DNA from: Bilabrum cf. latius
Taxonomy: Eukaryota
Assembly: GCA_965178125.1 (NCBI GenBank)
Contig: OZ237735.1
Span: 62,001 to 126,000, forward strand
Reading direction: 5' to 3'
DNA: 64,000 nucleotides
Shown piece by piece: positions 8,601-55,144 of this stretch. The notes beneath the pieces are model-generated. The model was given only the letters and a program-made list of their open reading frames with translations. It ran no database searches and was not told the origin of the DNA. The first letter of the stretch is position 1. Each line of letters opens with the position of its first letter. The position numbers and the translations under genes were made by a program.

Positions 8601-11600
8601 TACCAAACTGCCGGACTCATCGCGACTAGCACCTGCAGCATGGAATCCGCCCCCATCGCCATGCTCAGCAACAAAACTGCTTCCGGACACAGACAATGCC
8701 TGCGGACTGCCAATGTCGCCATCCTCGTTGGCAGCCCCTCCTGGGCTTGAGCCCACCACGTCTCCCTCGCTGGCAGGATCCGCCGCAGCGGCGCTGTCGC
8801 TGCCCTCGTCTCCGCCCTCCGCTTCCCCTTCCTCGCTGTCTTCGTCGACATCGACCACAAGAGCCTTTGCAATCGCCTAACGAGCCTTGTCGTCAGCTTC
8901 TGTAGCCCCCGTGGCGGCTTGGGAGCGAGCTACCCGCCGTGCCGCTGCCTTGCTGCCCGCCTCTGAGGCAGCAGAAAACGGGGGTGGGCGGGACTTGGAG
9001 TCTAGTAGAGCCACCCGACAGGGCCCACTCCCCGAGATGGCGTGCTGGTCGAATCCCCAAGAGAGCCCCCACCTGCTCTCAGGCGAGGCATCGGGCTCCC
9101 CGCCGTACCCCAGTGTCAGGGAGAGGCCTTGGCGAGAGTCGGGAGGTGGCTCGGGGATAGAGCCCGGGCCCCTCGGCTGTTGGCCACACACGAGCTGCAC
9201 AACCCGTTCGGCTGCCTTCGCATCGGCAGACCTGTTCCTATCCTCGTTGGGCATGCCGGCCACTGACTGCAGCCTGTCCACTTCTGCGGCTAGGGCGGCG
9301 CCCTGCAGCCGCAGGCTCCTGTTCGCAGCCTCCCTGCCCAGCACATCCTGATCAAGGCGCGCTCGTTCCGCCCTGACGACTTGCAAGGCTGCCAACATCC
9401 AGCCAGACTGGCTGGCGGGCACATCGTCAGCTACCTACATCACTCTAGAGCACCACCGGTGCCCGCCAGCTGATGCAACAGCTGCGCCAGCATCGGAGCC
9501 GGACAGTCCAGGACTGGCGGTTCCACTTGCACCGGAGGCAATTTGTACTGCCGCCAGAACGGCCCGCGCTTTGGTCCATAGACTTCGGGCGGGCGAGAAA
9601 GCGTCGTCCCACGGCGTTTGGGGCAACGGTGCAGCCTCACCGCTTTGGCTCGCACCCGACTCGATTGCTTCGCGGACCCCATCTCCAAGGCACATGCCAG
9701 CGGCCATAGTGTCAAACGCAGCGGTGACCACTGCGGCTGCCAGTTGCGTGGCCTGTGGCGCCACCGAACACATGGCCTCTGCTCGGGCGGGGCAAGGCTG
9801 CTCTGCTCGCTCCTTGACGGTGGAGCCAGCATCCTTATCAAAGGCCAGACGGATGCCCTCTAGCAGAAAGAAGAGCGCCTTGCGCTGCTCCTCCGAACTG
9901 CCCAGCCCCCAGCTGCTCGCGGGCTAAACCAGCGCCACTCGGCTTACGCCAGGGCCAGCGCGCCGACTCAGCGCGCCACCGCCACCTCGAGCCCTGGCTG
10001 CTGCTGCCTCGGCCGCAGCGGTGGTGGAGTCGGAAATCCCCCCGTCCTTTGCCACGGTATCTCCGCTGCTGCCGAGCCCAGTGATCTTGGGCTGCGGTCG
10101 GATCGGGGTCGCCGCCTTGCCGCTTCCAGCAGCAGCTGCTGCGGCAGCAGCCCCCGATTTGGACGGCGAGCCCACGGCCGCGGCTTGCTTAGCCTCAATG
10201 TGATCGGCCTCGAGCTGCGAGAGTGGCTTGAGCTCTAGCACCATGAAGCTCTGCACCAGTAGCACTAGCGTGGTCAGCACGCCCTCTGCCTCCTCTCGCT
10301 CATCGGGCGAAGAGGCCCGGCGCACGGCCCGTGCTCCCGCCTCGAGGGCACCCCGCGTCATCCGGAAGACGGCCCAGCAGTGCGAGCCGCCCAGTGGCAG
10401 GATGCGGCGGGCAAATTCCAGCGCGGGCCCCGCATTGGACAGCACCCTGGCGTGATAGGCCGGCTCTATCTTCGCTGCCGCTATCTCAAGGACGCTCAGC
10501 ACGTTGGCCCGCAGGATGTTCCTCTGCTTGTCCTCTCCGCGCAGCTTGCTAGCCTGCGATAGATGGCCCAGCAACTGCTCCACGACCTCCACCACGGTTT
10601 CCATCCGCAGAGCCCTCGCAGCTCCGTCTGGATCCCGCCCCGCATCGCCTATAAGCCCTTCCACTGCCAGCTGCGCCCACTGCGGCTCGGTGCCGTGCAT
10701 CAACCTAGCCTCCACAAGCACCAGCAGGATGTCCTTCGACTGCTGCCCGCAAGTGTGCCAGTCCTGCTGCATGGCAGCAGGGGAGGTGACGCTCCCTCTG
10801 TCGGCAGTCCCATCGTTCTCCTCTTCGTCACTTGCACTCGAGCACTGTGCCTGCTTTCTGCAGTGGGTTGTCAGTCGAGCCAGGAGGCCTAGCCAATCAG
10901 CATCCACGGCAAGCGGCTTCCCCCTGCTTTTGGTCATCTAGATGACGGCCTTCACGGCAGTATCGAGGCAGACCAGCGCGGCAAGCACCACGGAGGGAGT
11001 CGAGCACCATAGCAGCACCTCGAGCACCGCAGAGATCCCATCAGGCAAGGCAGCACCATGCGCCGCTTGCGGTAGGTACGGCATGGTGGCAGTGAACTTG
11101 TGGCACATGGCAGACAGCATCGTGAGCTTGCCGTCCAGCAAGTGCGTGAGCTTATCTGCACCACTGCACGGCTCTGCAGCGATCGTGCCTCCGTCTGTGA
11201 GCCACTTGTGCGGCGATGTCATCTCCTTACTGCTTCGAGTGCTGCCGAGCGGTGGAGGCTGCGCCGCTGCCCATTGCTCGTCCATTCGAGCGGGGGGCAA
11301 GCTGGGAGCCCCCAGCACACTAGGCACACCGGTCTTGCGGCCAAACTGACGGGGCATTCCGCTTGCGCATACCGCGTGCGGTGGCATGCTTGGTGAGCCA
11401 GCGACCTTGCCCTCGCACGCAGAAAGCACGGCGCCAAGTTCTTGCGCTTCGAATGCAAGGGCATCTTCGCTGGATCCGGGCTTGCAACAGGCACCAAGCG
11501 CCCGCTCCGCCATAGTCTACACTCGTATCCTTGACACCTCCAAGAGCCCATCATCATCGTCCTCAGCCTCGGCCTCATCGCCACCCCGTGCACCTCGTGA

Positions 11601-14600
11601 CCCTGGCCCCACCGCTCCACCCCGTGCACCAAGGGCCAATAGAGAGACAGACGCCGCCAGCAGCTCCACTTGCGCCACAGATTGCATTGAATCTGCTCTC
11701 GCCTGAGCGCTCCCAGCTAGTTCTCTGGCCGCTTTGAGCAGCCGGAGAGAAAAATGCGTCACAATTCCAGCCAAAGCTGCACTATCGATGGAACCCAGCG
11801 TTGTCGCAGCGTCACGCGCAGTCAGTGAATCGCTGGTCCCTTCGTGGGTGCTGTGGGAAGCAACGCTACCCGATGCGCTGGATAACCCTGTCCCGCCCCT
11901 GCTTCTGCCCCCACCGGCCTACCCTTGCTCATCATCCACATGTACCTGTGCATCCCCGTCCGACTCTGCGACGGACCAGTTCTCATCTGCTGCAATAGCA
12001 GACCCGCCCGCCAGCTTGGCCTGCCTCTCGGACAGCATGGCAGCGGTCGAGATGGTCGTGCTCTGCCTCCGCTGCCCTTCGTGTGCCACAGCCCGCCGCA
12101 GCAGGCCGGCTCCAGGCACAGCTGCATCCATGGACCAGCGCCAGCGAGATGATGCCTGAAGCCTGGCCACGCTTGAGAACCGACGCTTGCCGCGGTCGCC
12201 TACAGCCTGACCCTCGCCAGATCCAGCCGCGCTGCCGGGGGAAGGCAGCGCCAGCTCACTTCCGACTGGGCTCGGTGCTTCCAGTGCATCGTGCACGATG
12301 GAGGCATCACCAGTGGCCGACCGAGTGCGCGCCCTGATCTGCATGCTGCGCTCCTGCACCTTGGATGTAGCGCGCGAAGCTGTTGATGTCACCGCGAGGC
12401 ACACCTCACGAAGGGCTAGCAGGAGTGATATAATCTCAATGGCGGCGCAAACTACGCCGCTGCTCATTGATCCGTCCTCCAACAGGCTGCCGAGAGCAGC
12501 AGCACACAATTGAGCTGCATTGCAGGCATCGCACGACGCCAGGAGAACCATCGAGATGGGACCACCGGCGGCAACACACCGCCTCAACGAACCAGCAAAG
12601 GCTCTGCACGCCCATGCATGTCTGTCCCCGTTCGTCCCACCCGACGGCACCCGGCCCTGGCTAGACCTCGCGTGATCCGCCGCAGCCTTGGTCATCGCCG
12701 ACAGGCAGCTCACTACGGCCCTCCCAAGGGAGGAGGAGCCTGGCCCCAGCCCCGACCGGATTCGAGTGGCCTGCGCGATCGATGAGGCTCTACGGCGACC
12801 CGAGGCTGAGCTGCTGGTGCTGCCAGCGGAGGGCGTCCGCGTGGGCGCACTCGGCGCCATGGCATCTTGACTGCGGCTGGGGAGTTGTGCCCCTGTGGCC
12901 CCGTCGGTGGCTTCTCCTCGGCTCGCTAGGCCAACCTCGTTCGCAGCGAATGTGGCAGCATACGTGATACTCTGCACCAGCATCCGCTCCCATTCGATGC
13001 TTGTCTGAGTGCACACTGCTCCGACGTGTTCTTGTCCTGAGCGCCCATATGAGCAGGCGACAGAGAGGGAAGCTGCATCGCACACGTCCTAGTATTCCCA
13101 CCCGAGCAGCTTCCGCGGCGCGTCAACGTCTCTGTCGGCCAGATCACCCACCCGTCGGCTCCAGGCCCCCACCACGAGAGGTGCAGATCGCCCCCACAGG
13201 CTCCAGTTGCCGAGGATGCCCCGGAGGCACACAGCATGCAGCACCCGGGAGGGGCGACAGCTCTCAGTTAGCGCGCAGCACGCATCCAGCAGCCGCCCTG
13301 ACGTCCACGTCACTCCATCGAGACCTGAGCGCGCGTCCTCTTGCTTCGTACCCGAAGGTCGCCCGGCTGTGGCAGACAGCCTAGAGAGCTCCGCAGCCAG
13401 CACGCCGCACAGCCGAAGCTGGACAGCAATCTCCAGCGCGGCGCGGCTGCCTGCAACGGCTTGCGACAGCTCGACCACCAGGTTGGCAAGCTGCTGCGAC
13501 GCATGCATGCCAGGATCTCCCGCGCCTGCACCCTCTTCCTGCCCCCGAATTGCAGCGCACGCCCTCCGCACCTCACGCACCCAGCGAGCTGCGCCCAGCA
13601 CACCCATTCCCAGCCGCTGGCTTGGGGCGCAAACCAGCGAGGCAGGCCCTGCGTGACTGACCCCAGATCCTGCCGCGCACATGCGCAGAACGGCCTCAGA
13701 CGGTTCCGCCCCAGCGCCCAGCATGAGCAGTGCCTCGAGCGGGCACCCGGGCGATGCCAGCATCACCGCGGGGGACAGAAGGGCTTCGGCGCCCGTGTCC
13801 TGCTCTCCACCTCCGCGGCCCGGGGGCCCGAGACGGACGTACGCAGCAGTCGCGACTCCCGCGCTCCTCCATACCGGAGTGGTCCAGCACTGCAGCCTGT
13901 CCGTCGAAGAGGCCGCCCTGAACCCGCGGGCCACGCGCACATCCCTTCGGCTGGTGGCCGGCAGCGCCAGCTCCCAGCCAGACCCCTATGCGCCCAATGA
14001 CGTCGATCCCCCCGCCGCTGTATTGCTCTCACCCGCATCCCGCTCCCTTAAGGCTTCGCGGCAATCCCACGCTGTATCAGCCGGGATGAGCGCTGCTGCG
14101 ATGGGAGGCACGTGGGCCGCTTCGACCTACTCCGGGGTGAGGGAGACAGAGCTGTCCCCGCCATCGCCCCCCGTGAGCGTGCCAGCATCCAGCAGCCCAT
14201 CCGAGGGCCGCCGCCGCAGGGGCTTGGGTCTGCCCATCCTCCCGCTCGCCCTCCGTCTCACTGCCTGGCCCTTACCCTGGGCCCGGCCACTGGCCTAGCC
14301 CGAGCCAGACGAGCTAGCTCGCGTGGCTGTAGCCCCTCCAGCCGCAGACGAGCCTCGGGGCCTGCCCTGCCCACCATTTTCCTTGCCCTTGCCCTGCCCC
14401 TGCCCCTGCACCCCCGCTGCTCCGGCCTCCCTGCCCCCACCAGCAGTAGCAGTTTGCACCCCGCGAGACGGTGCCACGGCCAGGCTGCCCTCGCTGGGGC
14501 CGAAGAACGCAGACGATACGGTCGAGAACACAGAGGACACGCCATAGGACGCCCCCTCCACGATATTTGTCGCAGTCGCAGCCGCAGTGTCCGTGGCAGT

Positions 14601-15374
14601 GATCTGCAGCGGGGCAGGCGCGGGCAGCAGCGAGTGCAGGTCGGCGCCGTCCCCGTGGGGGCCCAGCGGCGGCGGGGCGCCGTCGTGGGATTCGCTCGCG
14701 TAACGCCGCACGAGTCCTACTCGATAGACCCGGCTGGGGACATGCAGCGACCACGGCACGGCCGGAGCGTGCCATGGAGTTGCCATGCCGGGGCCTCGCA
14801 GCGCGATCAGCTCTGCGTGGCTGTCAAGCAGGCGGGACCCGAACACAATGCACGGGCCGATAGCCCCGGTGAGATTTTCCCCTATCAAACACTGCACAAT
14901 GCTACCGTTTGGTTCCGGGATCTGGGCAGTCGCAATGAGCTGCCCGTCCAGCCAAAGCCGCAGCTGCGGCTGCCGGAAGTACTCGTGCCACATGGAGATG
15001 CAGATGTTTCGCCAAGAAGTGCACAGCCCGGCAGGTTCGTATCTTTTGGCAGCAGCTTGTACAACGCTGTGCTTTGCCCGGGTCGAAGGCACGCTCTCCG
15101 CGGCAAACCGCCAAACGGCCCGAGCTGCGACACCCACTCCGTTGCTGGCTTCCGCAGATTCACGAACGACTCTCGCCCTCACTCGTAGCGAACCTCCCTT
15201 TGACGATAAAAGCTTAATAGCAGTAAACTCTCCCAGATCCCCAGCGACACGAATCCACACTGAAGCGGCCACTCCACTGTTCGCAGCCACTCCTTGGACA
15301 GGAACTGCAATCCCCGGTATCCCCGAAGATTCAGCTTGCGGGAGCGCTGCGAAATAGCTAGTTTGGTACTACAT
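2646..15374 (-). CDS. Giant BEACH-domain protein (ConA-like, PH-BEACH, Vps62-like segment, WD40), ~4242 aa, apparently intronless, 18 internal TAG
   Basis: One frame broken only by TAG at 15369, 14295, 14127, 13986, 13089, 11919, 11517, 10938, 9924, 9435, 8877, 8496, 6507, 6312, 6249, 4770, 4122 and 3876. Ends TAA at 2646. BEACH motifs: TNLEYLHSLNRFASRT, FRDLRRPIGAL, YGSHFS, FDVTDRLF, EVKEITPEWY, VSSRMHHWIDLMFGHKQRG, HYGQSP. WD-like VAVGCADGTVRLLD. Confidence 0.9.
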
Positions 15375-15501
15375 CAATTGGCGTGAGTTGAAAACGCAAT
15401 TATGTTCAGGAGCTGATGAATCCTGTCCTTGAAGGCAAGCGCAGTGCCTGGACACTTCCAAGCGATCATGCAGTGCACCCACCTACCGATATCGCGCTTC
15501 T

Positions 15502-16974
15502 TCAAGATACCCCACCGCTCTCATCCGCCGCCGCCGGCTGCTCGCTGCCCTCTGCGATCACCGCAGCCACCACCTCAGCGCACTCCCCGTGTCCCCTCAC
15601 TTCCGCCAAGGCCCGCATCCCCTCCATCGCAGCTGGGTCCAGCACGTGCCTGGCCCTGCGCATCCGACCAGCCAGCTCCAGGGGCCGCCCCTCCTCGCAG
15701 CACTACCGTGCAATGCCCGCGTCCTGGCGCGCGTCCCCCGCCCACCGCCAGCGGAGCACCCGCGCCGCCCTCTCCCTGTTCTCGACCCTCAGTCGCCAAT
15801 ACCTCCACGGCGGGCCCGTAGGCCAAACTGTGGCGTACACAGCCTCAGGGGGCAGTCTGTCCTCGCCCGCAGTCAGGAGAGCAGTCACCACGTCCTGGTG
15901 TGGGGAGCAGACAGCCTGAGGGACCTTCCGACCCCTGTACGACGCGATCTGCCTGTCCCTGGCTGCCATGGCGCAGGCCACCCTGAGCGCCCGCCAGTCG
16001 CCAAAGTTTAGCTAGATCCTCCGCTTCCTCCCGGGCACTCGGAGGAACATCCTCACGATGTCCGCGTGTCCGCCGGTCACGGCCTCCATGAACGCGCGGT
16101 GCTTGAAGGCCCGCAGGTCGTACTTGCGCCCCTTTCTGTTGAGGGCCAGCAGCTCGCTCACCACAGCTGTGCTCCCTTGTGCGCATGCCCTCGTCAATGC
16201 ATCACCCTCCTCGGCATGGATGTCCACCTTCCTGTCCCCGTCGAGGCCGAGGAGCGTACGCACCACGTCCACGCGATTGCTCTCGCACGCGGCTCGGAAT
16301 GCAAGCTCATCCTGGGCGTGCACGTTCACCACGCCGTGGCTGCCCGGCCCTAAATTCAGTAAGAACTGGACGGCATCCAAATGTCCGCCGCGGCAGGCAG
16401 CGATGAATGCCGCCTCATCGTCTGCATGGATCTTCGGCGCCCGGACCCCCTTAATGTCCAATAGAGCCCGCATGACTGCCACGTGACCACAGGCACACGC
16501 ATGCTAAATTGGTTTACTATATGCATAATCTGCGCCTGTTGCGTCCGCACCGCTTTCCAGCAGCATCCTAACCATCTCGACGTTTCCGCTACCGCACGCA
16601 GCGTGTATCGGTTCGGATAGCATCTGGGCATCGTTAAGCGCACCAACACCAACATCATGCATCACATACCGGGCAACTGCTTCATTGCCACTACGGCAAG
16701 CATAAGACAGCACTTGCACTACGGCTGATCTCATAGGTGGCTGGCTGAAAGCACCAACAAGTCCAGATCTTCGGATTGCTTCAGCGCACTCAAAATGACC
16801 CTTGGAACAAGCGTTCTAGAAGCATGACGACCACAGCTGGGGCTCATGCTACAGAATAGACTCGCCGCTCTTGGCTGCATTGATCGCCGCCACTACTTGA
16901 CTTGTTGCACCGTCACTTGCTGCATCGAGAACGCCATGCAAGCTGAAGATGTCATAGCTATGGTCGGGATCCAT
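15502..16974 (-). CDS. Ankyrin-repeat protein, ~490 aa, 5 internal TAG
   Basis: Ankyrin units such as IHAACGSGNVEMVRMLLESGAD, AACRGGHLDAVQFLL and RACAQGSTAVVSELL lie in one frame. TAG at 16849, 16816, 16504, 16012 and 15703. Ends TGA 15502. Start MDPDHSY is assumed. Confidence 0.8.
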
Positions 16975-22300: not shown

Positions 22301-22604
22301 GCAGCGGCCGCGGCTGATGTCCCAGATTTCGGCTAGATCTTACGCCAGCTCGACGGGAGGTCTGGTGCCACAAGGCGTGGCGGCTCGCATGGGGCTGGGG
22401 CACGGCTTCGGGTCGGACCACGACATCCCGGGCTCGGTAGCGGTAGCGGCGGGGTCTGGCATGCTGCTGCCCGACTCGCCATCTCAGAGGAGCGTGGGGA
22501 GCGAGGGGAGCGATTCAAAGGATGGTAGCGGCGCAGATGATGGAGGCAGCAAGGTCGTGGCCAGCGGGGTGGCACTCGGGGGCCGTAGGCGCGGGCAGGG
22601 CTGA
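19354..22604 (+). CDS. Multi-pass membrane protein with long disordered C-terminal tail, 2 internal TAG
   Basis: ORFs 19512..21032 and 21084..22604 are in frame and separated by TAG 21030. There are about 6-7 hydrophobic helices at ~20100-20760. The main exon starts after acceptor TTTTTTTTCAG (19481) and contains TAG 19494. First exon 19354-19416 is tentative. Ends TGA. Confidence 0.65.
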
Positions 22605-22831
22605 TCCGGATCTCGGCAGGCAACCATTCCGAGTCGGATCCGAACAAACACGTCAGCTGTACTTGCATGCGCTTGCCGCGCTACATATTCCGTAGTTCAG
22701 CTAGATTTGGGTTGAAACGCATCGCAGTTACTTTGTGCTTGCGCACGGTCTCCTTTGAAGCGGGCAATCTCGTGAAAATCACTGAATTCACGCCGCGTCA
22801 CACGTACACGTAGGCGCTGTCCATTCGAGCC

Positions 22832-23610
22832 ATGTCCGGTGCAGCAGGCTCGAAACGCAAACGTTCAAACGATGGTAATGAATCTTCAGGAAAGAAAGCT
22901 AGAACTAGTTCAAAGTCTAGTGATGTGGGCCACAAGGTAGTCAATGCCGACGAAGACAGCGCTCGAGTGCGGCGGGAGCGTGTAATGGTCGTCAAGTCTG
23001 GGAAGAGCGACGGGGGCCCATGCAAGGGTCCCATTATCTTATGGATGTCGCGCGACTAGAGAGTGCGCGACAACCATGCCCTGCTGTATGCTGCTGATAA
23101 GGCAATCGAGTCCGACCAGCCTCTCGTGGTTTGCTTCAATCTCGTGAAGGGATTCCTAGGTGCTACGATTCGCCAGTTTGGATTTATGCTAGATGGCTTG
23201 AAGGAAGTTGAGGGGGCTCTGACTGCAAGGGGCGTTCCGTTCGTTCTGCTGCAGGGAAACGCGGCAGACACGGTTCCAGCTCTTGCTAGGGGCATCGGCG
23301 CCGCTGCCGTGGTCACGGACCTGACTACAGTGCGGATCGGCAGGGAGTGGAGGCGAGCAGTAGCAGAAAACCTCCCGCCCAACGTCTCCTTTGAGGTGGT
23401 GGACGCGCATAACGTGGTTCCAGTCTGGGTGGCCAGCCCAAAGCTCGAGTACGCCGCCCGCACCATCCGCTCCAAGATCCACAAGCAGCTGGGAGACTGG
23501 TTCCTGCCAGTGCCGCCTGTCTTCCCGGACCTTCCATCAGCTGTAGATGCGGCCCTGGATGGCGCACCGGGCGCGGGTGAACGAGCTTCCTCCTCCTCCA
23601 AGCCATCCTC

Positions 23611-23643
<33 letters not shown>

Positions 23644-24712
23644 AGCTGCAGCGTCATCCGGCGAGTCGTCCTCATCCTCATCGGCGGCCTCGTCCTCTTC
23701 CTCTTCCTCTTCCTCTTCCTCTTCCTCTTCCTCTTCCTCCCGAGGCAGCGCGCCCGTGCCCCGTGGCATGGACTCAGGGTCCATCAAGATGGACGGGCCA
23801 TCGTCGTCCGACTCTTGTTCTCTCCTGGGTGTGGGTGCATCGATCGACTGGGCCAAGGCGAAAGCCGGGCTGCAGGTGGACCGCGACGTGCAGGAGGTGG
23901 ACTGGATCAAGCCCGGGGAACAGGGCGGGGCACGAGCACTGGGAGCCTTCTGCGACCGGCTGAAAGGATACAGCAAGCACCGGAACGACGCCAGCAAGGA
24001 CGCACTCTCCGGACTCAGCCCCTACTTCCACTTCGGGCAGCTGAGCCCGCTGGCTGCCAACCTGGCGGTGCGGCGGCGGCGCAAGGCAGACCCCGAGTCC
24101 GCTGACGCCTTTTTCGAGGAGTCTGTGATTCGGCGGGAGCTGTCTGACAACTACTGCTTCTACAACCCGCAGTACGACCAGATCGAGGGTCTGTACCCGC
24201 AGTTCGGGAACAACTCGTGGGCGCAGCTGAGTCTCAGGGAACACGCCGGGGACAGGAGGCCCAAGGTGTACACGTACGACCAGCTGGACAGGGGCGAGAC
24301 GCACGACGAATTGTGGAACGCGTGCCAGATGGAGATGGTGGTCCGCGGCAAGATGCACGGGTTCTGCCGCATGCTCTGGGCCAAGAAGATCCTCGAGTGG
24401 ACCGAGAGTCCCCAGCAGGCCATGGATGTCGCTCTCAAGCTCAACGACAGGTACGAGTTGGACGGGAGGGACCCAAACGGATACGTCGGGGTGGCGTGGT
24501 CCGTGGCGGGCGTGCATGACCAGGGCTGGAAGGAGCGGGAGGTCTTCGGCAAGATCAGGTACATGTCCAGCGACGCGTGCAAGAAGAAGTTCGACGTGGC
24601 TGCCTACGTGGCCAACGTGCGGCGCATAGTGGATGCATGGAGGCGGGCAGGGGGCAGATTCGCGTCCGAGGCAGGGTCCGCGGCCGCGTCGGGCAGTGCT
24701 GAAGATGAGTGA
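22832..24712 (+). CDS. PHR1: Class II CPD photolyase, ~626 aa, 1 internal TAG
   Basis: Motifs WMSRD[TAG 23057]RVRDNHAL, VDAHNVVPVWVASPKLEYAARTIRSKI, LSGLSPYFHFGQLS, RRELSDNYCFYN, GKMHGFCRMLWAKKILEW and DGRDPNGYVGVAWS. Ends TGA. Confidence 0.95.
23587..23740. repeat. TCC/TCG/TCT microsatellite tracts encoding poly-Ser in the photolyase interdomain linker
   Basis: (TCCTCG)n and (TCCTCT)n runs are directly visible. Confidence 0.85.
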
Positions 24713-25676: not shown

Positions 25677-25995
25677 ACTTGCATATTCACCATCTTGCCG
25701 TGCGTCGTGGACGCGAGCTGCCTCTTTGCCAGTGGCCTGCCAGTGCCAGTGCTGCCCCTGCCCAAGGAGCCCACGCTGTTCGACCACGGCCCGGGGGCAC
25801 GAATCATGAAGCAAAACATGCAGCGAATGGCTTGAGCGAGCTCTCACAGGGTTAGACTAGGTTGGTCTCGGCGAACCCTGGACCAGCCGGACGAAGGTTC
25901 CTTGAAATGGCCGTTCGAGAAAACATTGAATCGTAGAAATAGCAGTGAAATATGATCGATGATACTGTCTACATGAGACGGATAGAATAAATTTC

Positions 25996-28900
25996 ATGCA
26001 GCAAAGGATGCATACCGATAAAAGCCCACAGTTGTGCTTTTACCATGCTCCAGTTCCAGTGAATGCCAGTAATGTGCAGTCGCTCGCCGCCAAACAGCCG
26101 ATCCTTGACCGCACTGATGATACCGGTGCGGATAGTCTCTCCAATGATGCACTATAGGCTGGCCACGTGAGCGTTGTGGCAGAAAAGTTCCATCAACGTC
26201 CGCAAGGCGGGTCAGACCGGCTTGCCGCGCCGCTCCAGCAAGCCGGCAGCAGCTAGGCAAGGCCAGCCTGGAAGATTCTTCAGCCGTCGAATCGATCCGT
26301 ATTTCCATTTGGATTCGGAGAGTCTGACGTTGTACCTGGACAGCCGAGTGATCCAGCATATTAGGATTGGCCAAAGGCAGATGGCAAGCTAGACTCGTAC
26401 CCGCAGAGGTGGTCCTCGTCGCTGCAACAAGGGGGCATCGCAGAGGAAATGTCCCTAATTGCAAGCCAGTCTGTCGGCCTGCGCTCGCCACGACTGGGCC
26501 GCGTGGACCACTTGGTGCCCCGGCCCCGCACCGAAGCGAGCATCCGCACCGAGCAACAGGCCAGCCCGCCAGCGAGCAACGTCACCGTGGCGCTGTAGAA
26601 TCGGCCGGAGCCCGTCGCAGTTAGACTGGCTCTCTACAAGACAGCCGTGTCCAACAGACCCACTGGGTCGTGCCCTCCCAGCAGCATGGCCCCTGCCCGG
26701 GCTGGAGCTCCCGTGTTTGAGCTGTCCGCTGCCAGCGACCCGGAGCCAGAGCCCGGTATCGGCAGATCGCCCCGCCTCAGGCCACGGCAGACTCGGAGGC
26801 AGAAGGAGGGTGCAAGCCATCGGGAAGGTCACTGGCCCCCTGGGTTCGCGGACGAAGCGATGGTCCCCGCTCCTCCGACGACACAACCCCACTAGCATTG
26901 GCAGGGATTGCCCTCGCGGCGACCCACCAGTGCAGCAAGGGCACGGATGACCGAGAGGCTCAGGCTGCAGCACGCTGCGACAGAGGCTAGGAGCGAAGCC
27001 GGGGAGCGGAAGCACGGCCAAGATCGCAATCCAGCGCAGATACTGCCCCCCATCGGTTCCGCACCAGGCCGACCTCACTGGCAGCTTCGCCCCTCTCCGA
27101 ATCGGCACGGGAGTGCAGCCAGCAGATGGGCACTGGGAGAGGCCGGGCGATACAAGGATGTCGGTCTCGGCTCGATCTCTACGTCCCAAGAGCAGAGAAT
27201 AGCCGACTTCTCCCCGCGCAGTACTACGAGCGCCCATGCCTAGGGGCAAAGAGGCGCTCCTCTGGACTCAAGACAGCGGGAGTCTGCCACAAGATCTCCA
27301 GCTGACAAAGTGCGATGGAGAGGGCTTGCTGCCAGCCCACTGTCTGCCAGACGAAAGTTGACTGTGTCCTAGCAGTCTACCGCCCTTGCTCAAGACCACG
27401 ACGAGCGTCGCTCGGACGCAAAGCAAGGCTCGCGGAACCACGGCAAGATTGTATCGCTTCACAAGCAGCACTTGCTGCTGCACGCCGGAGCCGATGGTAG
27501 CACACTGCAACAGCGAGCCGAACATGCGCCTGCAGCATCCTCCTGGCAAGGTCAAGTCGAAATCGCCGCCGAGGCAGACAACAGGGGCGAGCACGTTGAG
27601 TCTCCAGCGGCGCCGTAGGCCGTGCTGCGGCTCCGCGAGACCTCCAGGCGCCAGAGCCTCATCAATAGGGGCTTGGTAGATGCAGCCGGCAGCCCTGTGC
27701 CCGATACGGCCGGCACTGGGGGACAAGAGTCCAAGTCAGGCGACGCAGGGAGCAGCACTCCTGCTCCTCCATCCTAGCACAGGCATGGGTCGTCGTCACC
27801 TCGCTGGCGGCTCGATGCCGGAGACCACGGTCGGCACGAACAGCTTACTGGGGCTGAGCTCTTGCAGGGAAGGGGGCTGCTGAGGGATGCTCGGGGCGCT
27901 GTGCCAGCTTCAGATGCTGCAGATGAGCACCGTGCTCCAGCACTATAGCAACGGCACAGTCGCCGTGCTGGAGCTGTGTAGGGTCATCAGCAACGGCATG
28001 GCAGCAAGGCGCACGCACCCGTGCGAGCCAGCAGCCCTGACACGCCGGCAAGTGAGTTTGCGGAGCCGACTAGCCCAAGGGACGGCGATCAACTTATGGA
28101 TGGTGATACGTTCCTGGTCTCGGATTCCGCAGCACTGGGAGGTGGCAGCCCTGCCCATGATGCCCTAAACACCCTGGTGCCGACCAACGAGGCGCCTTCG
28201 ACGCCACCGGCATCGAAACCGTCCAGCAAGCCGGAGGAGTAGGCTGCTCTGGCAGGCCCTGCTAGTATCAAGCCGCCTAGGACTATTTCCAGTCATGGCG
28301 CAGGCTCAGGTCGGTCTCATCGCCCAACGCGGCGTCCTCGTGCGCCGCGTGCACCTGGTGCACCTGGAGGCAGTCGGCCCGCGCCACCACCTGCCAGGCG
28401 AGGGGGTCAGGTGCAGGAGCAGAAACAGGAGCAGGAGCACGTGTACAACAGCACGCCGCTTGGCAGGACAGATCGCCCAGGGAGTGCTGCCTCTCGACGC
28501 TAGCGCCCTCGGCGAGCCAGCACGCTCGTGGTAGACGACCCCAGCACGCCCTTCCATGCCCCGGTCGAAGATGACACCCGGGAGGCACGGAGGGACGGCG
28601 ACAAAGCGGAGCCCGCGACTCAGGCTGCTGGATAGGCGCGCCATAGAGGACGCAGGGCCTCGGCGTTCGCCGTGAACCACCTGCTCCGCGGTGCCGTGGG
28701 GAGTCTGCACGACCACGTCGGCCTCCAGGAACACGTCGGCCTCGAGGAGCTCGGTGACAGCGGGCTGGCAGCGATGCAGAGGCCGGCCGTGCGGGCGAGG
28801 AGCAGGCGTGTATCCCAAGTGACCATGGGTGCAGGTGCGCACTACGGTCCCACCGCTGCTGCCGCCGATGCCTCGGGCCGGCACGTGTACGACAGCAGCT

Positions 28901-29742
28901 CGGGTGGTGCCCGGGGTCCACTGCGAGCGCCCAGGGAGATCAAGCGGTTCCCGGCGCGGAGGAGCGCCAGGCGCCCGTCAATTGTGGACAACTTGGGCGC
29001 CCGCGCCATGGTGAGCGATAGGATGGAGCAAGGAACTGGAGTGCATGCCCTGGCCGGACGACGTGGCAAGCTCAGGGCAGCCGCGTCGTTCTTGGGCGCG
29101 TCAGTGTCATCTCGGCGGCGATCGACGGGTGGCATTGGGGTGGCTGCTCTGGGCCAGCCTGCTCTAGGTACCGACCTGCATGAGCCAGAGCGATCAGATC
29201 GGCCTAAAGCAGATGGCACGGTGCTGCAAGCTCTGCATGGCCCCTCTAGGAGACCACCGGCCCCGGTGCGTGCCCCGCTGGGCATCGATCGGCCCGGGGC
29301 GGATGCATCGAACGATGTGCCGCTCGTCAAGCCGAAAATAGACGCTGGTCCCATCAAGCCAACCAAGAAAGAGCGCATTGATTCGTCTGACCAAAAAAAG
29401 GCGATACCTCCTCCAAAGGAGCCCGCGCGTGTGGGGACTGAGCCGCAACCGCAACGTGCTACGCGTCCGAGTGGGTCGGCCCCTGCTCCTGGCCAGTCTG
29501 GGCCCTCTGCGCTCAGCGGGCTGCCTAGCTTTGGGCCATCCTCCGGCCAAAAAGCTCCAAGGCATGGACTGTCGCCGCGGCCCACGTCTGCGGGTGGCTG
29601 GAGCGTCGTCAGCTCGGAAAGCGGCGGGAGCGACCGGAACGGCGAGGACGAGCAGGGCGTGGACGTGGTAGGGATGGTGGCACTGCAACAGATAGAAGAG
29701 GAACAGGAAAAACGCAGAGGCAAGCGCCAGGAAAGGCGCTAA
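25996..29742 (+). CDS. Large low-complexity/disordered hypothetical protein, ~1248 aa, 14 internal TAG
   Basis: Single frame with no TAA/TGA until TAA 29740. TAG at 26155, 26254, 26362, 26596, 26893, 27241, 27370, 27616, 27775, 27946, 27979, 28240, 28501 and 28633. No recognisable domain. Confidence 0.7.
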
Positions 29743-30374: not shown

Positions 30375-33300
30375 ATGGCGGCATCGGGGGCTGGATCGGG
30401 TACTTCGTCTGCTTCTGCTGCATCTGGAGGGGCAAGTAGCCCTTCCACTGGGCTGAAGCGTGCACGCACCACGGAATCGTCGTGAGAACTGGCTTCGAAA
30501 CTGAAGTGTTTGAATTCCGATTTTACATGTGGCTTATTTGAAGTCACGACAGAATCACACCGTAAACATTCAATTGAATATACGAAACGTATCCTTAATT
30601 ATCGTATGCAGGACTTTCACGGACGAAATCGCGGAGCTGGGCACAAGCTAGAAGGATGTTTGGGGCAGGCCTCCCATGCCACCTTTGGACGATAGGAAAG
30701 ATGATTTGGGTAAGAGCCGCAGGCCCGTGCTTCTTTTTGGCTCCTTGTGTAGCGTAGAAATACCTGTTGTATCTCCATGGTCCCTTCGCTGGTGCTTGGG
30801 TCGCAGTAATGCAATGGAGCTACATCGACATGTATCAAGGGGATCCCCTGCCTGCTAACCCGAATCCGGCACGAACCATGCCAGGCTCCAGGGAAGGCCC
30901 AGTTCCTGTTATTCGACTGTTTGGCATCACAGCGGAGGGGAACTCTGTGATGGCCCATGTGCACGGTTTCACGCCATATTTCTACTGCCAGGTGCCGTCC
31001 TCGTTCGACCCCAGCCGGCACATCAAGGAGTTTTAGATGGCTCTGGACCAGGCCCTGAGGGGTGCCGGGAAGCAGTTTGAGCGCATGCCCAAGCGTGTAT
31101 TGGCCGTGAACATGGTGGAGCGCACCTCGATCATGTACTACATGGGCAAGGCGAAGCAGCGCTTTCTGCAGGTGTACGTGGCCATGCCCACCGTGGTGCC
31201 TGCCGCCCGCCGTATGCTCTCCAAGGGCATCCGGCTGCCTTCCCAGGGACACGCGGCCAGCTACCAGTGCTTCGAGGCGAACTGCACCTTCGTGCTTCGC
31301 TTCATGATCGACCGCGGCATCGTGGGGCACCAGTGGCTGAGGATGCCCAAGGGCAACTACAAGGTGCGCAAGCAGTCCCAGTTCCGGTCCAAGTCGCAGT
31401 GCGAGTTTGACGTCGTCTACGACAGCATCGATGCCAAGGCGACGGAGGGCGAGTGGCAGACCATCGCTCCCTTCCGCATCCTGTCCTACGACATCGAGTG
31501 CAAGGGCAGGAAGGGGCACTTCCCGGATCCTAAGGAGGACCCCGTGATCCAGATCGCCAACGTCCTGCAGCTGCAGGGCACCAACGAGCATCCCGTCAGG
31601 AACGTGTTCGTGCTGGGCACTTGCACTCCCATCGCCGGCGCGGACGTGCTCACCTTCCGCACTGAGAAGGAGATGCTCACCGCCTGGGCCAAGTTCGTGC
31701 TGGCCACCGACCCGGACGAGCTCACAGGGTACAACACGGACAACTTCGATATGCCGTACCTCATCGAGAGGGCCAGGCAGCTGGGAGTGAAAGAATTCGA
31801 GCACATCGGGCGCATCCAAGGGGAGGGCATCCGCATCCGAGACACCACGTTCCAGAGCGCGGCGCACGGCAAGCGGCAGAACAAGGAGACCACGATCGAC
31901 GGGAGGGTCAGCTTCGACATGCTCGAGTACATGAGGCGCAACCACAAGCTGAGCTCCTTCTCCTTGAACGCCGTGTCCGCCGAGTTTCTCGGCCAGCAGA
32001 AGGAGGACGTGCACCACAGCATCATCGGGGACCTCCATGAGGGCTCCCCTGATGACCGCAGGCGTCTGGCCGTGTACTGCCTGAAGGATGCCTGGCTGCC
32101 CTTGCGGCTCATGGACAAGCTCATGGTCATGGTCAACCACATTGAAATGGCGCGAGTGACAGGCGTGCCCCTGGATTTCCTGCTCAAGCGCGGCTAGCAG
32201 ATCAAGGTGGTGAGCATGCTCTACCGCAAGTGCCTCAAGGACGGGCTGCTCATTCCGACGATGGAGCGGCAGGGGGCATCAGCTGACGACACCACATACG
32301 AAGGAGCCACCGTGATCGAGCCAAAGAAGGCGTACTACGACGAGCCCATCGCCACGCTGGATTTCGCCTCGCTGTACCCCAGCATCATGCAGGCCCACAA
32401 CCTTTGCTACTCGACCCTGCTGCCCCCAGGCACCGACGCGGGGCTGAAAGAGGGCGACTACGAGGTGACGCCCACCAGGCACCGCTTCGTCAAGCCCTCG
32501 GTCAAGAAGGGGGTCCTGCCAGAGATTCTTGAGGAGCTGCTGTCAGCCCGGAAGCGCGCCAAGCGGGACATGAAGGCTGCGACGGACCCGATGGTGAAGG
32601 CGGTGCAGAACGGACGGCAGCTGGCGCTCAAGATCAGCGCCAACTCGGTGTACGGGTTCACCGGCGCGACGGTGGGCCAGCTGCCGTGCCTCGAGATCTC
32701 GAGCTCGGTGACCTCGTACGGCAGGCTCATGATCGAGCAGACCAAGGAGGCCGTGGAGAGGATGTACACGGTGGCCAACGGGGCCCCGGCCGATGCAGAC
32801 GTGGTGTACGGCGACACGGACAGTGTCATGGTCAAGTTCGGAGTCCCCGACGTCAAGACTGCCATGGAGCTTGGCGAGAAGGCTGCAGACGAGGTGACCA
32901 AGCTGTTCCCCCACCCCGTGAAGCTCGAGTTCGAGAAGGTGTACTTCCCGTACCTGCTCATGAACAAGAAGAGGTATGCCGGCCTGTACTGGACGCAGCC
33001 TGAGAAGTGGGACAAGCTCGACACAAAGGGAATCGAGACTGTGCGGCGAGACAACTGCGCTCTGGTGAGGCAGGTGGTGACGCAGGTGCTGCGCAAGATT
33101 TTGATCGACCGCAGCATCAAGGACGCGATCGAGTACACCAAGGGGACAATCTCTGAGCTGCTGCAGGGCAAGGTGGACATCAGCATGCTGGTCATCACCA
33201 AGGCGCTGGGCAAGGGCGCCTCGGACAGCGACTACAAGGCCAAGCAGGCGCACGTGGAACTGGCCGAGAGGATGAGGAAGAGGGACCCGGGCACTGCACC

Positions 33301-33886
33301 GGCGGTGGGTGACCGCGTCCCTTACGTGATCACGCAGGCGGCCAAGGGTGCCAAGGCCTACGAGAAGAGCGAGGACCCCATCTACGTGCTGGAGCACGGT
33401 GTGCCCATCGATTTCAAGTACTACCTTGACAACCAGCTGAGCAAGCCCTTGATGCGGATCTTTGGGCCCATCATCGAGAGCCCGCAGAGCCTGCTGGTTG
33501 GCGACCACACGCGAGCCATAAAGAAGACGGCCAGCACCAAGAAGGGAGGCATCATGCAGTTCGCAGTGAAGCGGCGCAAGTGTCTCTACCAAGGGTGTAA
33601 CGTGCCGCTGGCTGCCGGCGAGCGCACGGTGTGCGCGACGCACAAGTCGCAGGAGGCCGAGGCCTACCGCCAGCGCCTGGAGCTGGTCACTTCCAAAGAG
33701 CGCAAGTTCGCTCAGCTGTGGACGACCTGCCAGCGGTGCCAGGGCAGCCTGCACCAGGACGTCATCTGCTCCAACCGAGATTGCCCCATATTCTACATGC
33801 GCACCAAGGTGGCCAAGGAGCTTGACGAGGCCGCGGACAAGCTGGAGCTGTTCCAGGCCGCGTACGAAGGCAGCGGGGGATTCTGA
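30375..33886 (+). CDS. POLD1: DNA polymerase delta catalytic subunit, ~1094 aa, 3 exons, 3 internal TAG
   Basis: Exons 30375-30481, 30612-30709 and 30807-33886. Motifs: exo I SYDIEC, LDFASLYPSIMQAHNLCYST, RQLALKISANSVYGFTGA, YGDTDS and C-terminal Cys motifs. TAG at 30649, 31034 and 32195 (LLKRG*QIKV). Ends TGA. Confidence 0.97.
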
Positions 33887-34019: not shown

Positions 34020-35933
34020 TCAGCTCTCACCTGCCGCCCCACCGGCTCCGCTCTCTCTGCTCCCACCCCCGGCCCCGTCCTCACTTCCCTCACCTTTGTC
34101 TTTACCATCTTCCTTCGGGTCACCCGGCGCGCTGACGCCGGCCATGTGCGAGGCGGCTGCCAGGTGGGCAGCAAGGTCCTCCTGAGCCGCGCCACCACCA
34201 GGCAATGCACCCGGGACGGCCCCGGCCCTGGCCCACGGCGCTGCTGTCCCAACTCCTAGCCCAGCTCCCGCACCTGCACCCGGACCAGGCCTCGCCCACG
34301 GCGCTGCTGTGCCAGGCCCCGCCCCCACACCTACGCCCATGCCCATGCCCATCCCGGCGGCCCCGGCCCTCGCCCAAGGTGCGGTGGCCGACACCCCCAT
34401 GCCCACCTCGACGGGTGCCTGCCGCCCCAGCCGCGCGTCGGAGCGAGCCACCTGCCAGTCGGCCGGCAGCAGTTCCCCGAAGAGGAGGTGCTGCATCACC
34501 TGCCTCTTGGCCAACACCTCTCCGTGAAACATGCGCAGGAGGCCCCGCCGGGCCCGCTCCCAGGTGGGCAGCTGGCTCACGTCGTGCAGGATCGGGGAGT
34601 GCTCAGCGAAAGGGGCCCCTGTCTTCACCTCGAGCACGAAGTCAATGGCGCGCAGATACATGTACTCGTCGCGGTGCGCCTCGCGCACGGCGGGGTCCAG
34701 CACGGAACTGGGCCGGATGGCCTGGTGTCGCACGAGCTGCGATGCTCCGAATAGAAAGACCAGCAGCTGGTAGTCATCCAGGCTCCACACACCGTGCGAG
34801 CCGGCGGGCTCCAGCTTGTACGCGCCTTGAATTCGCCTGCAGACCCGCATGTAGGCCGGAAATGCCCGCAGCGCCATGGCCTGCAGCCATGTCGATGCAC
34901 CGGGTGCAGCCGCACGGGCAGCACCAGCACCAGCACCAGCACCAGCACCAGCACCAGCACCAGCACCAGCACCAGCACCAGCACCAGCACCAGCACCAGC
35001 ACCAGCACCAGCACCAGCACCAGCACCAGCACCAGCACCAGCACCAGCACCAGCACCAGCACCAGCACCAGCACCAGCACCAGCACCAGCACCAGCACCA
35101 GCACCAGCACCAGCACCAGCACCAGCACCAGCACCAGCACCAGCACCAGCACCAGCACCAGCACCGGCGGAAGGGGCGTCGTGGGGGCCGCTGGTTCGAG
35201 CAGCCGCTGCTCCAGACCCTCCTGTATCGCTGCTCGTGGCACTCTCATCTCCCGCCGTGCCTTTCTCCTTCTCCCCGCCCGGGTGCCCCCCTGGCCCCGC
35301 AGCCTCCGACGGCTCCTTGTCACCTGCTGCGTCACCGGGCTCATCCGAGTGGTCGCAGTTGTCATGCAGGAGCAGGAGCAGCACCACAAAGCAGCACTCA
35401 TGACCGGTCCCATAGTCAATTCGGGTCGCATTCCCAAAGCTCTCCGCCAGGTACCCAGCAAGCTCGCGGATGCTGCTCGGTGACAGGTCGCTCGCCCCCG
35501 TCGTCGATGCTTCCTCAGCACCTTCCGCAGGATGGCCCGCAATGACATACCGCATCAAATTCTCAGCCTGGGAGACCATGTCTTTGTGGTACGATCTGTA
35601 GGCCTTGTTCCCGAACCGCATGGGCTGCTCTATAGGCGGGTGCCGGTCAACCAAGTCGTGAAGCTGTTCAAGTACCTCGACCAATCGCGACACGACGGGG
35701 GGTACCTAGATATCTACCGACATAGATTTACCCTCACAAGCCAGCGAGAGATCGCCAACAAACGCAGAGATCCTCCGAAAGCTATTCGATGACCTGAACT
35801 GATTGTGATCAGCGTCAGACAAGATCATTCTCTTCAGTCCCCATCGAGCTCCTGCAACTTCATCCGACGGATCCATGGATGATATTGGGTCTATGACAGA
35901 CCCCATCTCTCCAGGAAGCTCCGGCGATGACAT
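34020..35933 (-). CDS. PTPA: PP2A activator PTPA/Rrd, ~637 aa with Gly-Ala insertion, 1 internal TAG
   Basis: Motifs PPIEQPMRFGNKAYR, ESFGNATRIDYGTGHE, YKLEPAGSHGVWSLDDYQ, PFAEHSPILHDVS and EVLAKRQVMQHLLFG. TAG 35706 joins the N-terminal ORF 35706..35933. Ends TGA. Confidence 0.93.
34921..35165. repeat. Perfect (GCACCA)40 hexamer array encoding ~(Gly-Ala)40 in PTPA
   Basis: 240 nt of uninterrupted GCACCA plus a partial unit. Confidence 0.97.
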
Positions 35934-36055
35934 GATCCTTGCGAATTTTGGTCAGTTGCAGCAAAAAATTAGCCTGCCGGAACGAACCTACGATCGAACG
36001 TTCGCCAGCGCCACAGAACCAACGAATCGTAAATGCAGCAAAACTGTAGCACAAC

Positions 36056-54839: not shown

Positions 54840-55144
54840 GGCCAGCATCGCTCAAATTCTACAAGTGCACACCTTCACGGGCCTCCCCCGCAGCTATTTA
54901 CGCCAGGGAACGTATACAATCATTGCAAGACATCAATCACTCACCTACCGAAACACCTGCCATGGTAGGTGCGAAAAATATCCAACAAATAGAGCGTCAC
55001 CGTGCTTGTTTCTGCGGACCTGAAACGGCTGCGGATGCAATCGTCACATGTGCTCCTGCCGCCGTGGCGGGCGGGCCGGTGTGCGAACCAAACAACACAA
55101 AATCCCATTTCGACTGCAAAACGCATACCATAGACCTTCAAATC

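What the first reader, a model, noticed from the sequence alone, without database searches (positions are those of the whole stretch)
32180..32215. TAG in the invariant RGQQIKV motif of essential DNA polymerase delta
Seen: CGC GGC TAG CAG ATC AAG GTG. Established: Pol delta has RGQQIKV between the exonuclease and polymerase domains. A stop here would delete the whole polymerase domain, yet all catalytic motifs downstream are intact. This argues against a pseudogene.
Basis: partly seen in the sequence, partly recalled or inferred. Interest (0 to 1): 0.85.

Follow-up and report, generated by a model that had tools for sequence, protein, structure and literature searches.

The report
TAG codes for glutamine here
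The stop-like TAG inside the DNA polymerase delta gene is real but is read as glutamine, because this GC-rich protist (a relative of the flagellate Cafeteria) appears to have turned TAG into a sense codon across its genes while keeping TAA and TGA as stops.

Summary
In detail: CGC GGC TAG CAG ATC AAG GTG lies at 32189-32209, with TAG at 32195-32197, in frame in a Pol delta catalytic-subunit gene. It is not a gene-specific oddity. Twelve long frames in the window carry up to 63 in-frame TAG codons, against 399 CAG and 91 CAA. Each ends at TAA (3) or TGA (8).

TAG falls on conserved glutamines:
- Pol delta Q in 18 of 18 homologues.
- EB1 Q in 3 of 3 alignments shown.
- Class II photolyase Q in 3 of 3 alignments shown.

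A metagenomic relative, L001 (90.5% protein identity), has nine different in-frame TAGs in the same gene. Of the 12 TAG sites in either copy, 10 face CAG or CAA and 2 face GAG.

A spliced, transcript-like contig keeps all three TAGs unchanged. Selection downstream of the TAG is strongly purifying (pN 0.045, pS 0.63).

Best reading: a nuclear code with UAG = Gln and UAA/UGA = stop. This variant is known from Iotanema and a few ciliates. Here it sits in a stramenopile lineage near Cafeteria, for which I found no report. The tRNA and eRF1 basis is inferred, because no whole genome was available.

The parts
32195..32197 (+). In-frame TAG, codon 532 of Pol delta, in the R-G-Q-Q-I-K-V motif; read as Gln
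   Evidence: Q in 18 of 18 homologues. CAG in the L001 orthologue.
31034..31036 (+). In-frame TAG, codon 145 of Pol delta
   Evidence: This column is Q in 8 and R in 10 of 18 homologues. GAG in L001.
30649..30651 (+). In-frame TAG, codon 49 of Pol delta (exon 2)
   Evidence: The aligned L001 codon is CAA.
30375..30481 (+). Pol delta exon 1, from the first ATG seen in the transcript-like contig
   Evidence: Run X5 record 7 covers 30372-30481. Translation.
30482..30611 (+). Intron 1 (130 nt, GT..AG)
   Evidence: Joint 30481>30612 in one contig each of X5 and X6. Boundaries.
30612..30708 (+). Pol delta exon 2
30709..30805 (+). Intron 2 (97 nt, GT..AG; the cut may lie 1 nt to the right)
   Evidence: Joint 30708>30806 in X5 and X6.
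30806..33886 (+). Pol delta exon 3, including the terminal TGA at 33884-33886
   Evidence: The X5 contig ends at 33947, before the next in-frame stop at 34133.
2646..15557 (-). BEACH-domain giant protein frame (4303 codons) with 19 in-frame TAG; ends at TAA 2646-2648
22541..24712 (+). Class II DNA photolyase frame. The TAG at frame codon 173 sits in W-M-S-R-D-x-R. Ends at TGA.
   Evidence: Q in 3 of 3 alignments shown.
53394..54851 (-). EB1 (CH domain plus EB1 motif) frame with two in-frame TAG; ends at TGA
   Evidence: x81: Q in 3 of 3; x134: Q, Q, G.
55145..60268 (-). CAMSAP-like protein with a CKK domain. One search counts 10 in-frame TAG in the frame and one search counts 9 after the first ATG, including six in a (GGR TAG) repeat. 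Ends at TAA.
34020..35951 (-). PTPA (PP2A activator) frame with one in-frame TAG; ends at TGA
   Evidence: the site is hypervariable and uninformative.
25963..29742 (+). Unknown 1259-codon protein frame with 14 in-frame TAG; ends at TAA; has a homologue at the start of L001

Best explanation
[quoted passage not shown] The TAG at 32195 is therefore an ordinary Gln codon in a functional, expressed, single-copy-looking Pol delta catalytic-subunit gene.

Shown here: TAG is frequent inside long conserved reading frames, falls on conserved Gln positions, interchanges with CAG/CAA between two related species, and is kept in a spliced transcript-like contig. TAA and TGA sit only at frame ends.

Inferred from established knowledge of such codes (Panek et al. 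2017, PMC5304391; McGowan et al. 2024, PMC11687900): decoding is by a tRNA-Gln with anticodon CUA, which pairs with UAG but not UAA, together with an eRF1 whose N-terminal domain no longer recognises UAG efficiently.

The lineage is placed, on a single-gene tree, among stramenopiles near the bicosoecid Cafeteria. Its nearest sampled relatives outside the window/L001 pair still end Pol delta with TAG, so the change looks lineage-specific.
For: 1. Spread across genes. In 12 frames (13,343 codons after the first ATG) there are 63 in-frame TAG, 399 CAG and 91 CAA. The frames end at TAA (3) or TGA (8), and one runs off the window. A 4303-codon BEACH frame holds 19 TAG but no TAA or TGA, although its two off-frames hold 132 TGA.

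2. Identity of the residue.
- Pol delta codon 532 aligns with Q in 18 of 18 homologues.
- EB1 x81 aligns with Q in 3 of 3 PDB alignments shown, and x134 with Q, Q, G.
- Photolyase x173 aligns with Q in 3 of 3 shown.

3. Comparative test. The L001 orthologue (90.5% identity) has 9 in-frame TAG, none at the window's sites. Of 12 sites with TAG in either sequence, 10 face CAG or CAA and 2 face GAG.

4. Selection. pN 0.061 against pS 0.68 overall; downstream of the TAG pN 0.045 against pS 0.63. Codon positions 1, 2 and 3 are 90%, 96% and 53% identical.

5. Transcript. X5 record 7 (3349 nt) joins 30481>30612 and 30708>30806 at GT..AG introns and then runs to 33947 with 0 differences, so it carries all three TAGs. 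X6 shows the same two joints.

6. TGA and TAA as stops. Pol delta ends at TGA in both species at the homologous C-terminus, and the X5 contig ends before the next in-frame stop. TAA follows the C-terminal CKK domain by 16 codons. TAA ends the BEACH frame, after which the sequence stops looking like protein. All TAA codons in the 19 code-6 frames lie within 150 codons of a frame end.

7. Control. Across the 80 metagenomic Pol delta loci, the first stop after the match is TAG in 22, TGA in 32 and TAA in 25, and none was found in 1. These include the two next-best matches, L002 and L008, which end with TAG right after the conserved terminal W.
Against: - No tRNA gene of any kind is in the window or in L001, and no whole genome was held. 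The decoding tRNA and eRF1 were therefore not seen.
- Frames were delimited by TAA and TGA, so 'no TAG terminator' is partly true by construction. A TAG near a 3' end could still be a real stop in a dual-use code; one example is the DHHC frame, where TAG lies 40 codons before the TGA.
- Two sulfatase TAGs align with E and M in the 2 bacterial sulfatase alignments shown. The PTPA site is hypervariable, with Q in 2 of 120 homologues.
- 2 of the 12 TAG sites in the window/L001 comparison face GAG (Glu).
- The tool labels run X5 'RNA? (probably DNA)'. Its RNA nature is inferred only from the two spliced joints.
- There is no protein-level evidence.
Confidence: 0.9

Rival explanations
1. Both TAA and TAG encode glutamine (the common 'ciliate/hexamitid' code, NCBI table 6), and TAA is merely rare because the genome is GC-rich. 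TGA would then be the only stop.
For: Under table 6 some frames lengthen slightly, for example the BEACH frame from 4303 to 4453 codons. TAA is expected to be rare at 55-72% GC.
Against: Every TAA in the 19 frames lies within 150 codons of a frame end, while TAGs are spread throughout. After the BEACH TAA the translation turns into non-protein-like sequence. The CKK domain, which I recall is C-terminal in CAMSAPs, ends 16 codons before a TAA. If TAA were used like CAA relative to CAG (91:399), about 14 internal TAA would be expected beside 63 TAG, and none is seen (my arithmetic).
Confidence: 0.04
2. [quoted passage not shown]
For: This cannot be excluded from 64 kb. Frames were delimited by TAA and TGA, so a terminal TAG would be hidden. 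The DHHC frame has a TAG 40 codons before its TGA, beyond the conserved domain.
Against: In six genes (Pol delta, photolyase, EB1, PTPA, CAMSAP, BEACH) conserved domains lie downstream of the last TAG (WD-like repeats read in the translation). Every complete frame has a TAA or TGA close to where homology ends.
Confidence: 0.05
3. TAG is a sense codon but encodes another residue, such as glutamate (as in peritrich ciliates and Blastocrithidia) or leucine (as in the rhizarian exLh).
For: 2 of 12 TAG sites in the window/L001 pair face GAG. One sulfatase TAG aligns with E in the 2 alignments shown.
Against: Invariant Q in Pol delta (18 of 18). Q in EB1 (3 of 3) and photolyase (3 of 3). 10 of 12 sites face CAG or CAA. 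Q and E exchange readily in proteins (general knowledge).
Confidence: 0.03
4. The Pol delta copy is a pseudogene or carries an assembly error, or the TAG is bypassed gene-specifically by programmed readthrough or U-to-C editing.
For: A stop in an essential gene would normally suggest one of these. P0003, a 99%-identical database protein, shows Q at both sites. It could be a TAG-free allele, but its DNA could not be read.
Against: Strong purifying selection downstream. An identical DNA contig in run X4 and an identical spliced contig in X5. The same phenomenon occurs in at least 11 other frames and in the L001 orthologue at other sites. No frameshifts.
Confidence: 0.01

Closest known systems
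Iotanema spirale (Fornicata) nuclear code: UAG = Gln, UAA and UGA = stop (Panek et al. 2017, PMC5304391; abstract and passages read)
   Same: The same reassignment pattern, inferred in the same way: in-frame UAG at conserved Gln positions with UAA kept as a stop.
   Different: An unrelated supergroup (Metamonada). In Iotanema UAA is the primary terminator, whereas here TGA ends 8 of 11 complete frames. The window's genome is GC-rich. The eRF1 change proposed for Iotanema (T32G in the GTS motif) could not be looked for here.
Phyllopharyngean ciliates Hartmannula sinica and Trochilia petrani, and Protocruzia tuzeti: UAG = Gln only (McGowan et al. 2024, PMC11687900; abstract, introduction and discussion read)
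   Same: UAG is the only reassigned codon and is used widely as sense.
   Different: Those are ciliates that use UAA for 86.9-98.3% of stops. This lineage groups with stramenopiles near Cafeteria on a Pol delta tree, has spliceosomal GT..AG introns of 97-130 nt, and mostly uses TGA as stop.
NCBI translation table 6 (UAA and UAG = Gln; many ciliates, hexamitids, oxymonads, ulvophytes, an aphelid)
   Same: A stop codon becomes Gln, presumably through a mutated tRNA-Gln.
   Different: TAA is not used as sense in the window.
Rhizarian exLh and an uncultivated phyllopharyngean clade: UAG = Leu (PMC5304391, PMC11687900)
   Same: UAG is uncoupled from UAA.
   Different: The amino acid here is Gln, not Leu.
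Cafeteria roenbergensis (Bicosoecida), the closest named relative of the Pol delta protein
   Same: A GC-rich (~70%), intron-poor stramenopile genome (PMC6972860, abstract and passages). Its Pol delta sits in the P0007 cluster, at 64% identity to the window's protein, and in the same 8-row clade.
   Different: In the passages I read, a non-standard code is mentioned for Cafeteria only for the mitochondrial genome.

Membership tests
Nuclear code variant UAG = Gln with UAA/UGA = stop (table 15-like; Iotanema type) | Many in-frame UAG codons inside conserved protein-coding genes | tested here: met
   Up to 63 TAG in 12 frames; 3 in Pol delta; 9 in the L001 orthologue.
Nuclear code variant UAG = Gln with UAA/UGA = stop (table 15-like; Iotanema type) | UAG falls at positions conserved as glutamine in homologues | tested here: met
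   Pol delta 18 of 18 Q. EB1 3 of 3 and photolyase 3 of 3. 10 of 12 sites face CAG or CAA. Exceptions: sulfatase aligns with E and M, and the PTPA site is variable.
Nuclear code variant UAG = Gln with UAA/UGA = stop (table 15-like; Iotanema type) | UAA retained as a terminator and absent inside genes | tested here: met
   Met within 64 kb only. TAA occurs only near frame ends and ends the BEACH, CAMSAP and 25963 frames where homology or protein-like sequence stops.
Nuclear code variant UAG = Gln with UAA/UGA = stop (table 15-like; Iotanema type) | UGA retained as a terminator | tested here: met
   Pol delta ends at TGA at the homologous C-terminus in both the window and L001. The transcript-like contig ends 61 nt later, before any further in-frame stop.
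Nuclear code variant UAG = Gln with UAA/UGA = stop (table 15-like; Iotanema type) | A cognate tRNA-Gln with anticodon CUA | not testable with these tools
   No tRNA in the window or L001. No genome held.
Nuclear code variant UAG = Gln with UAA/UGA = stop (table 15-like; Iotanema type) | eRF1 N-domain changes that weaken UAG recognition | not testable with these tools
   eRF1 is not in the window, and no genome was held.
Nuclear code variant UAG = Gln with UAA/UGA = stop (table 15-like; Iotanema type) | Gln found in peptides at UAG positions (proteomics) | not testable with these tools
   This is an experiment.
DNA polymerase delta catalytic subunit (POLD1/Pol3) | B-family exonuclease and polymerase domains plus the C-terminal C4 zinc-finger module, with intact conserved motifs | tested here: met
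   Pfam PF03104, PF00136, PF14260 and PF24055. Invariant DFASLYPS, SANSVYG and YGDTDS columns. Best hits are Pol delta at 56-67% identity.
Pseudogene | Relaxed selection, frame disruptions, no mature transcript | tested here: not met
   pN/pS about 0.07 downstream of the TAG. A single open frame under TAG = sense. A spliced contig exists.
NCBI table 6 code (UAR = Gln) | In-frame TAA at Gln positions | tested here: not met
   No TAA in the interior of any of the 19 frames, or of the 12 frames.

The most novel reading that the evidence does not exclude
This would be the first nuclear genetic-code change seen in stramenopiles: a UAG-to-Gln reassignment with UAA and UGA kept as stops, in a bicosoecid-related lineage. 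It would have arisen after that lineage split from relatives that still end Pol delta with TAG. It would also have arisen in a GC-rich genome where TGA, not TAA, is the main stop. That setting fits an ambiguous-intermediate route better than AT-driven codon capture. Two species already sampled (the window and L001) would bracket the event.
Probability: 0.5. Interest if true: 0.78.

Novelty: new member of a known kind. Interest (0 to 1): 0.7.

Why it matters
Reassignments of UAG alone are rare. The papers read here list one fornicate, one rhizarian, one green alga and a handful of ciliates. These cases are the natural experiments showing that eukaryotic termination can tell UAG from UAA.

A new, independent case would add a data point against purely AT-driven codon capture, for three reasons: it lies in a GC-rich, intron-poor stramenopile; its relatives use the standard code; and a second species shares the new code. 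It would also give a comparative system for finding the eRF1 and tRNA-Gln/GlnRS changes involved.

Practically, any annotation of this genome with the standard code will truncate or split most long genes. Under the standard code the BEACH gene would break into 20 pieces.

Tried and rejected
**Resources that were not available**
- The whole genome is not held, so the tests for copy number, tRNA(CUA) and eRF1 could not be run.
- Supplementary files of the papers were not consulted. The eRF1 alignment of PMC5304391 and the supplementary tables of PMC11687900 may hold relevant comparisons.

**Searches that found nothing**
- ARAGORN found no tRNA in the window or in L001.
- Rfam found nothing in either.

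**Sequencing runs**
- No RNA holder is listed on record. The two runs guessed to be RNA were laid as contigs only.
- Run X7 holds a relative (49 differences over 30802-32025), but its listed pieces stop at 32025, so it says nothing about the TAG at 32195.
- A non-canonical joint (32661>32960, side 24) and several loose ends in X5 and X6 look like other sequences sharing conserved polymerase motifs. I did not interpret them.

**Tests that were uninformative**
- PTPA, tried as a second taxonomic marker, gave scattered named hits (flatworms, fungi, Blastocystis, a brown alga, insects) and places nothing. Its TAG column is hypervariable.
- The BEACH and DHHC PDB alignments contain no TAG position.
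- The unnamed closest proteins (P0004-P0013 and others) could not be matched to any fetched locus at 85% identity or more, so their codes are unknown.
- A simple codon log-likelihood scan for coding frames discriminated poorly and was not used.

**Errors in my own calls**
- Searches failed because frames I named contained stops. They were corrected.
- In the tree the row L011 was mistranslated across introns (43 stops, branch length 10) and should be ignored.

**Literature searches**
- Searches for a stramenopile or bicosoecid UAG reassignment found none in the held library. That library lacks most subscription journals.
Full report
**The observation.** The codons CGC GGC TAG CAG ATC AAG GTG occupy 32189-32209, with the TAG at 32195-32197. 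Read through, the frame gives a protein with three Pfam matches: the B-family exonuclease domain (residues 170-406 of P0001), the polymerase domain (470-905, E 1.8e-152) and the Pol delta C4 zinc finger (947-1015). Its best database matches are Pol delta catalytic subunits at 56-67% identity. In an alignment with 18 homologues, R478, G479, Q480, K483 and V484 are invariant. The TAG is the Q480 column. The catalytic blocks downstream (DFASLYPS, SANSVYG, YGDTDS) are intact.

**The gene model.** Contigs of two public runs (X5, X6) join 30481 to 30612 and 30708 to 30806, removing 130-nt and 97-nt GT..AG introns. The X5 contig (3349 nt) then runs without a single difference to 33947. The coding sequence is therefore 30375-30481, 30612-30708 and 30806-33886, or 1094 codons ending in TGA. 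It has three in-frame TAGs, at 30649, 31034 and 32195. The tool labels X5 'RNA? (probably DNA)'. I treat the contig as transcript-derived only because it is spliced at canonical intron ends. A DNA run (X4) gives one contig identical to the window over 30172-34500 and no diverged second copy.

**TAG is not special to this gene.**
- With TAA and TAG both read through, the window holds frames of 4453, 1798, 1318 and 1114 codons.
- TAGs are scattered all along these frames, whereas every TAA lies within 150 codons of a frame end.
- With TAG alone read through (table 15), the frames end where protein-like sequence or homology ends.
- Twelve such frames (13,343 codons after the first ATG) contain 63 TAG, 399 CAG and 91 CAA, so TAG would be about 11% of Gln codons. 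The frames are a BEACH giant protein, an ankyrin protein, class II photolyase, Pol delta, PTPA, a sulfatase exon, EB1, a CAMSAP-like CKK protein and four unknowns.
- Three of these frames end at TAA and eight at TGA.
- The count of 63 is an upper bound, because starts were set crudely at the first ATG.
- The BEACH frame has 19 TAG and no TAA or TGA over 4303 codons, while its two off-frames hold 132 TGA. Chance cannot give that.

**Which amino acid.**
- Pol delta codon 532 is Q in 18 of 18 homologues.
- Pol delta codon 145 is Q in 8 and R in 10 of 18 homologues.
- In EB1 the first TAG aligns with Q in all 3 solved homologues shown, and the second with Q, Q, G.
- In class II photolyase the TAG in W-M-S-R-D-x-R aligns with Q in all 3 alignments shown.
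- Less helpful sites: the PTPA site is hypervariable (R in the human chain; Q in 2 of 120 homologues). The two sulfatase TAGs align with E and M in the 2 bacterial sulfatases shown. The BEACH and DHHC alignments contain no TAG site.

**The comparative test.** A metagenome contig, L001 (7.6 kb, 55% GC), carries the orthologous Pol delta at 90.5% protein identity. Upstream it carries a homologue of the window's neighbouring gene. Its Pol delta has nine in-frame TAGs, none at the window's three sites. Of the 12 sites with TAG in either species, 10 face CAG or CAA in the other and 2 face GAG. That is how synonymous Gln codons behave. Synonymous sites are near saturation (pS 0.68) while pN is 0.061. 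Downstream of the TAG at 32195, pN is 0.045 against pS 0.63. The polymerase domain is therefore translated and constrained.

**Controls.** Of 80 metagenomic Pol delta loci, only L001 shows this pattern among the closer relatives. Five distant loci with many in-frame TAA/TAG look like organisms with already known variant codes. Across the 80 loci, the first stop after the match is TAG in 22, TGA in 32 and TAA in 25, and none was found in 1. The two next-best matches, L002 and L008 (62-63% identity), both stop with TAG right after the conserved terminal W. TAG is thus an ordinary stop outside the window/L001 pair.

**Who it is.** One cluster among the nearest proteins (P0007, 64% identity) contains Cafeteria roenbergensis Pol delta. 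Maximum-likelihood trees place window+L001 (100/100) in an 8-row group with Cafeteria (SH-aLRT 99; 94/98). That group lies inside a 15-row starred clade that also holds the TAG-stop loci L002 and L008, and everything sits within the stramenopile sequences relative to plant outgroups. This rests on one gene with patchy taxon sampling, and a second marker (PTPA) was uninformative. The window's 55-72% GC and few introns resemble Cafeteria, which has ~70% GC and fewer than 2 introns per gene (PMC6972860 passages).

**Mechanism.** It is shown here that TAG is sense and equals Gln, that TAA and TGA are stops, that TAG is retained in a spliced contig, and that the trait is shared by two species. The rest is inferred. 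Because UAA must still be ignored, the decoder should be a tRNA-Gln with anticodon CUA, and eRF1 should have lost efficient UAG recognition. This was argued for Iotanema and exLh (PMC5304391, passages) and for phyllopharyngean ciliates (PMC11687900, introduction and discussion). Neither gene is in the window, and no genome was available.

**Comparison with what is known, and novelty.** According to the discussion of PMC11687900, UAG-only to Gln is known in Iotanema spirale, Hartmannula sinica, Trochilia petrani and Protocruzia tuzeti. UAG-only to Leu or Ser is known in a rhizarian, some ciliates and Scotinosphaera. Seven full-text searches found no report for any stramenopile. The library lacks most subscription journals, and the underlying data date from 2025, so a description may exist elsewhere. 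I therefore file this as a new member of a known kind: a known code variant in a lineage where it has not been reported. It has the unusual features of a GC-rich genome and TGA as the main terminator.

**Verdict.** Confidence in that reading is about 0.9. The remaining doubt concerns possible dual use of TAG, the status of TAA beyond this window, and the unseen tRNA and eRF1.

Noticed in passing
window 55372-55413 (- strand): Inside the CKK-domain region of the CAMSAP-like gene there is a hexanucleotide repeat: CAG GGA, then (TAG GGR) six times. It reads as a (Gln-Gly)7 run, with six of its seven Gln codons being TAG. It may be a microsatellite that spread the reassigned codon, or a small unrecognised intron.
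   Followed up: partly
window 34919-35165: A perfect 41-copy CAGCAC repeat (100% matches) lies inside the PTPA coding frame. It reads as a run of about 80 Ala-Gly residues that splits the PTPA domain into two Pfam stretches.
   Followed up: partly
window 50419-50887: A 60-bp tandem repeat (7.8 copies, 98% matches) lies inside a 637-codon frame on the minus strand that has no Pfam match. It encodes a repeated 20-residue unit.
   Followed up: no
L001 1-3253 versus window 25963-30300: Partial synteny. L001 starts with a homologue (36% identity) of the window's gene upstream of Pol delta. It also carries an extra minus-strand gene, which looks to me like a glycoside hydrolase, between that gene and Pol delta; the window has no such gene there.
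   Followed up: partly
L061 (also L058, L068, L077, L079): Distant Pol delta loci from metagenomes have 8-28 in-frame TAA/TAG codons. L061 has 8 TAG and no TAA, aligned to mixed residues, so it may be another organism with TAG alone reassigned.
   Followed up: no
window 1374-2549, 45832-47274, 48349-48837, 60439-61785: Further genes in the window: a P-type ATPase fragment (1 TAG), a PLP-dependent decarboxylase (0 TAG), a ubiquitin-conjugating enzyme (0 TAG) and a DHHC palmitoyltransferase (1 TAG, 40 codons before its TGA).
   Followed up: partly
window 29500-32025, run X7: A 'protist metagenome' run holds a diverged relative of this region: 49 differences over 30802-32025, and more with small indels upstream. 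At least three related genotypes therefore exist in public data: the window, this one and L001.
   Followed up: no
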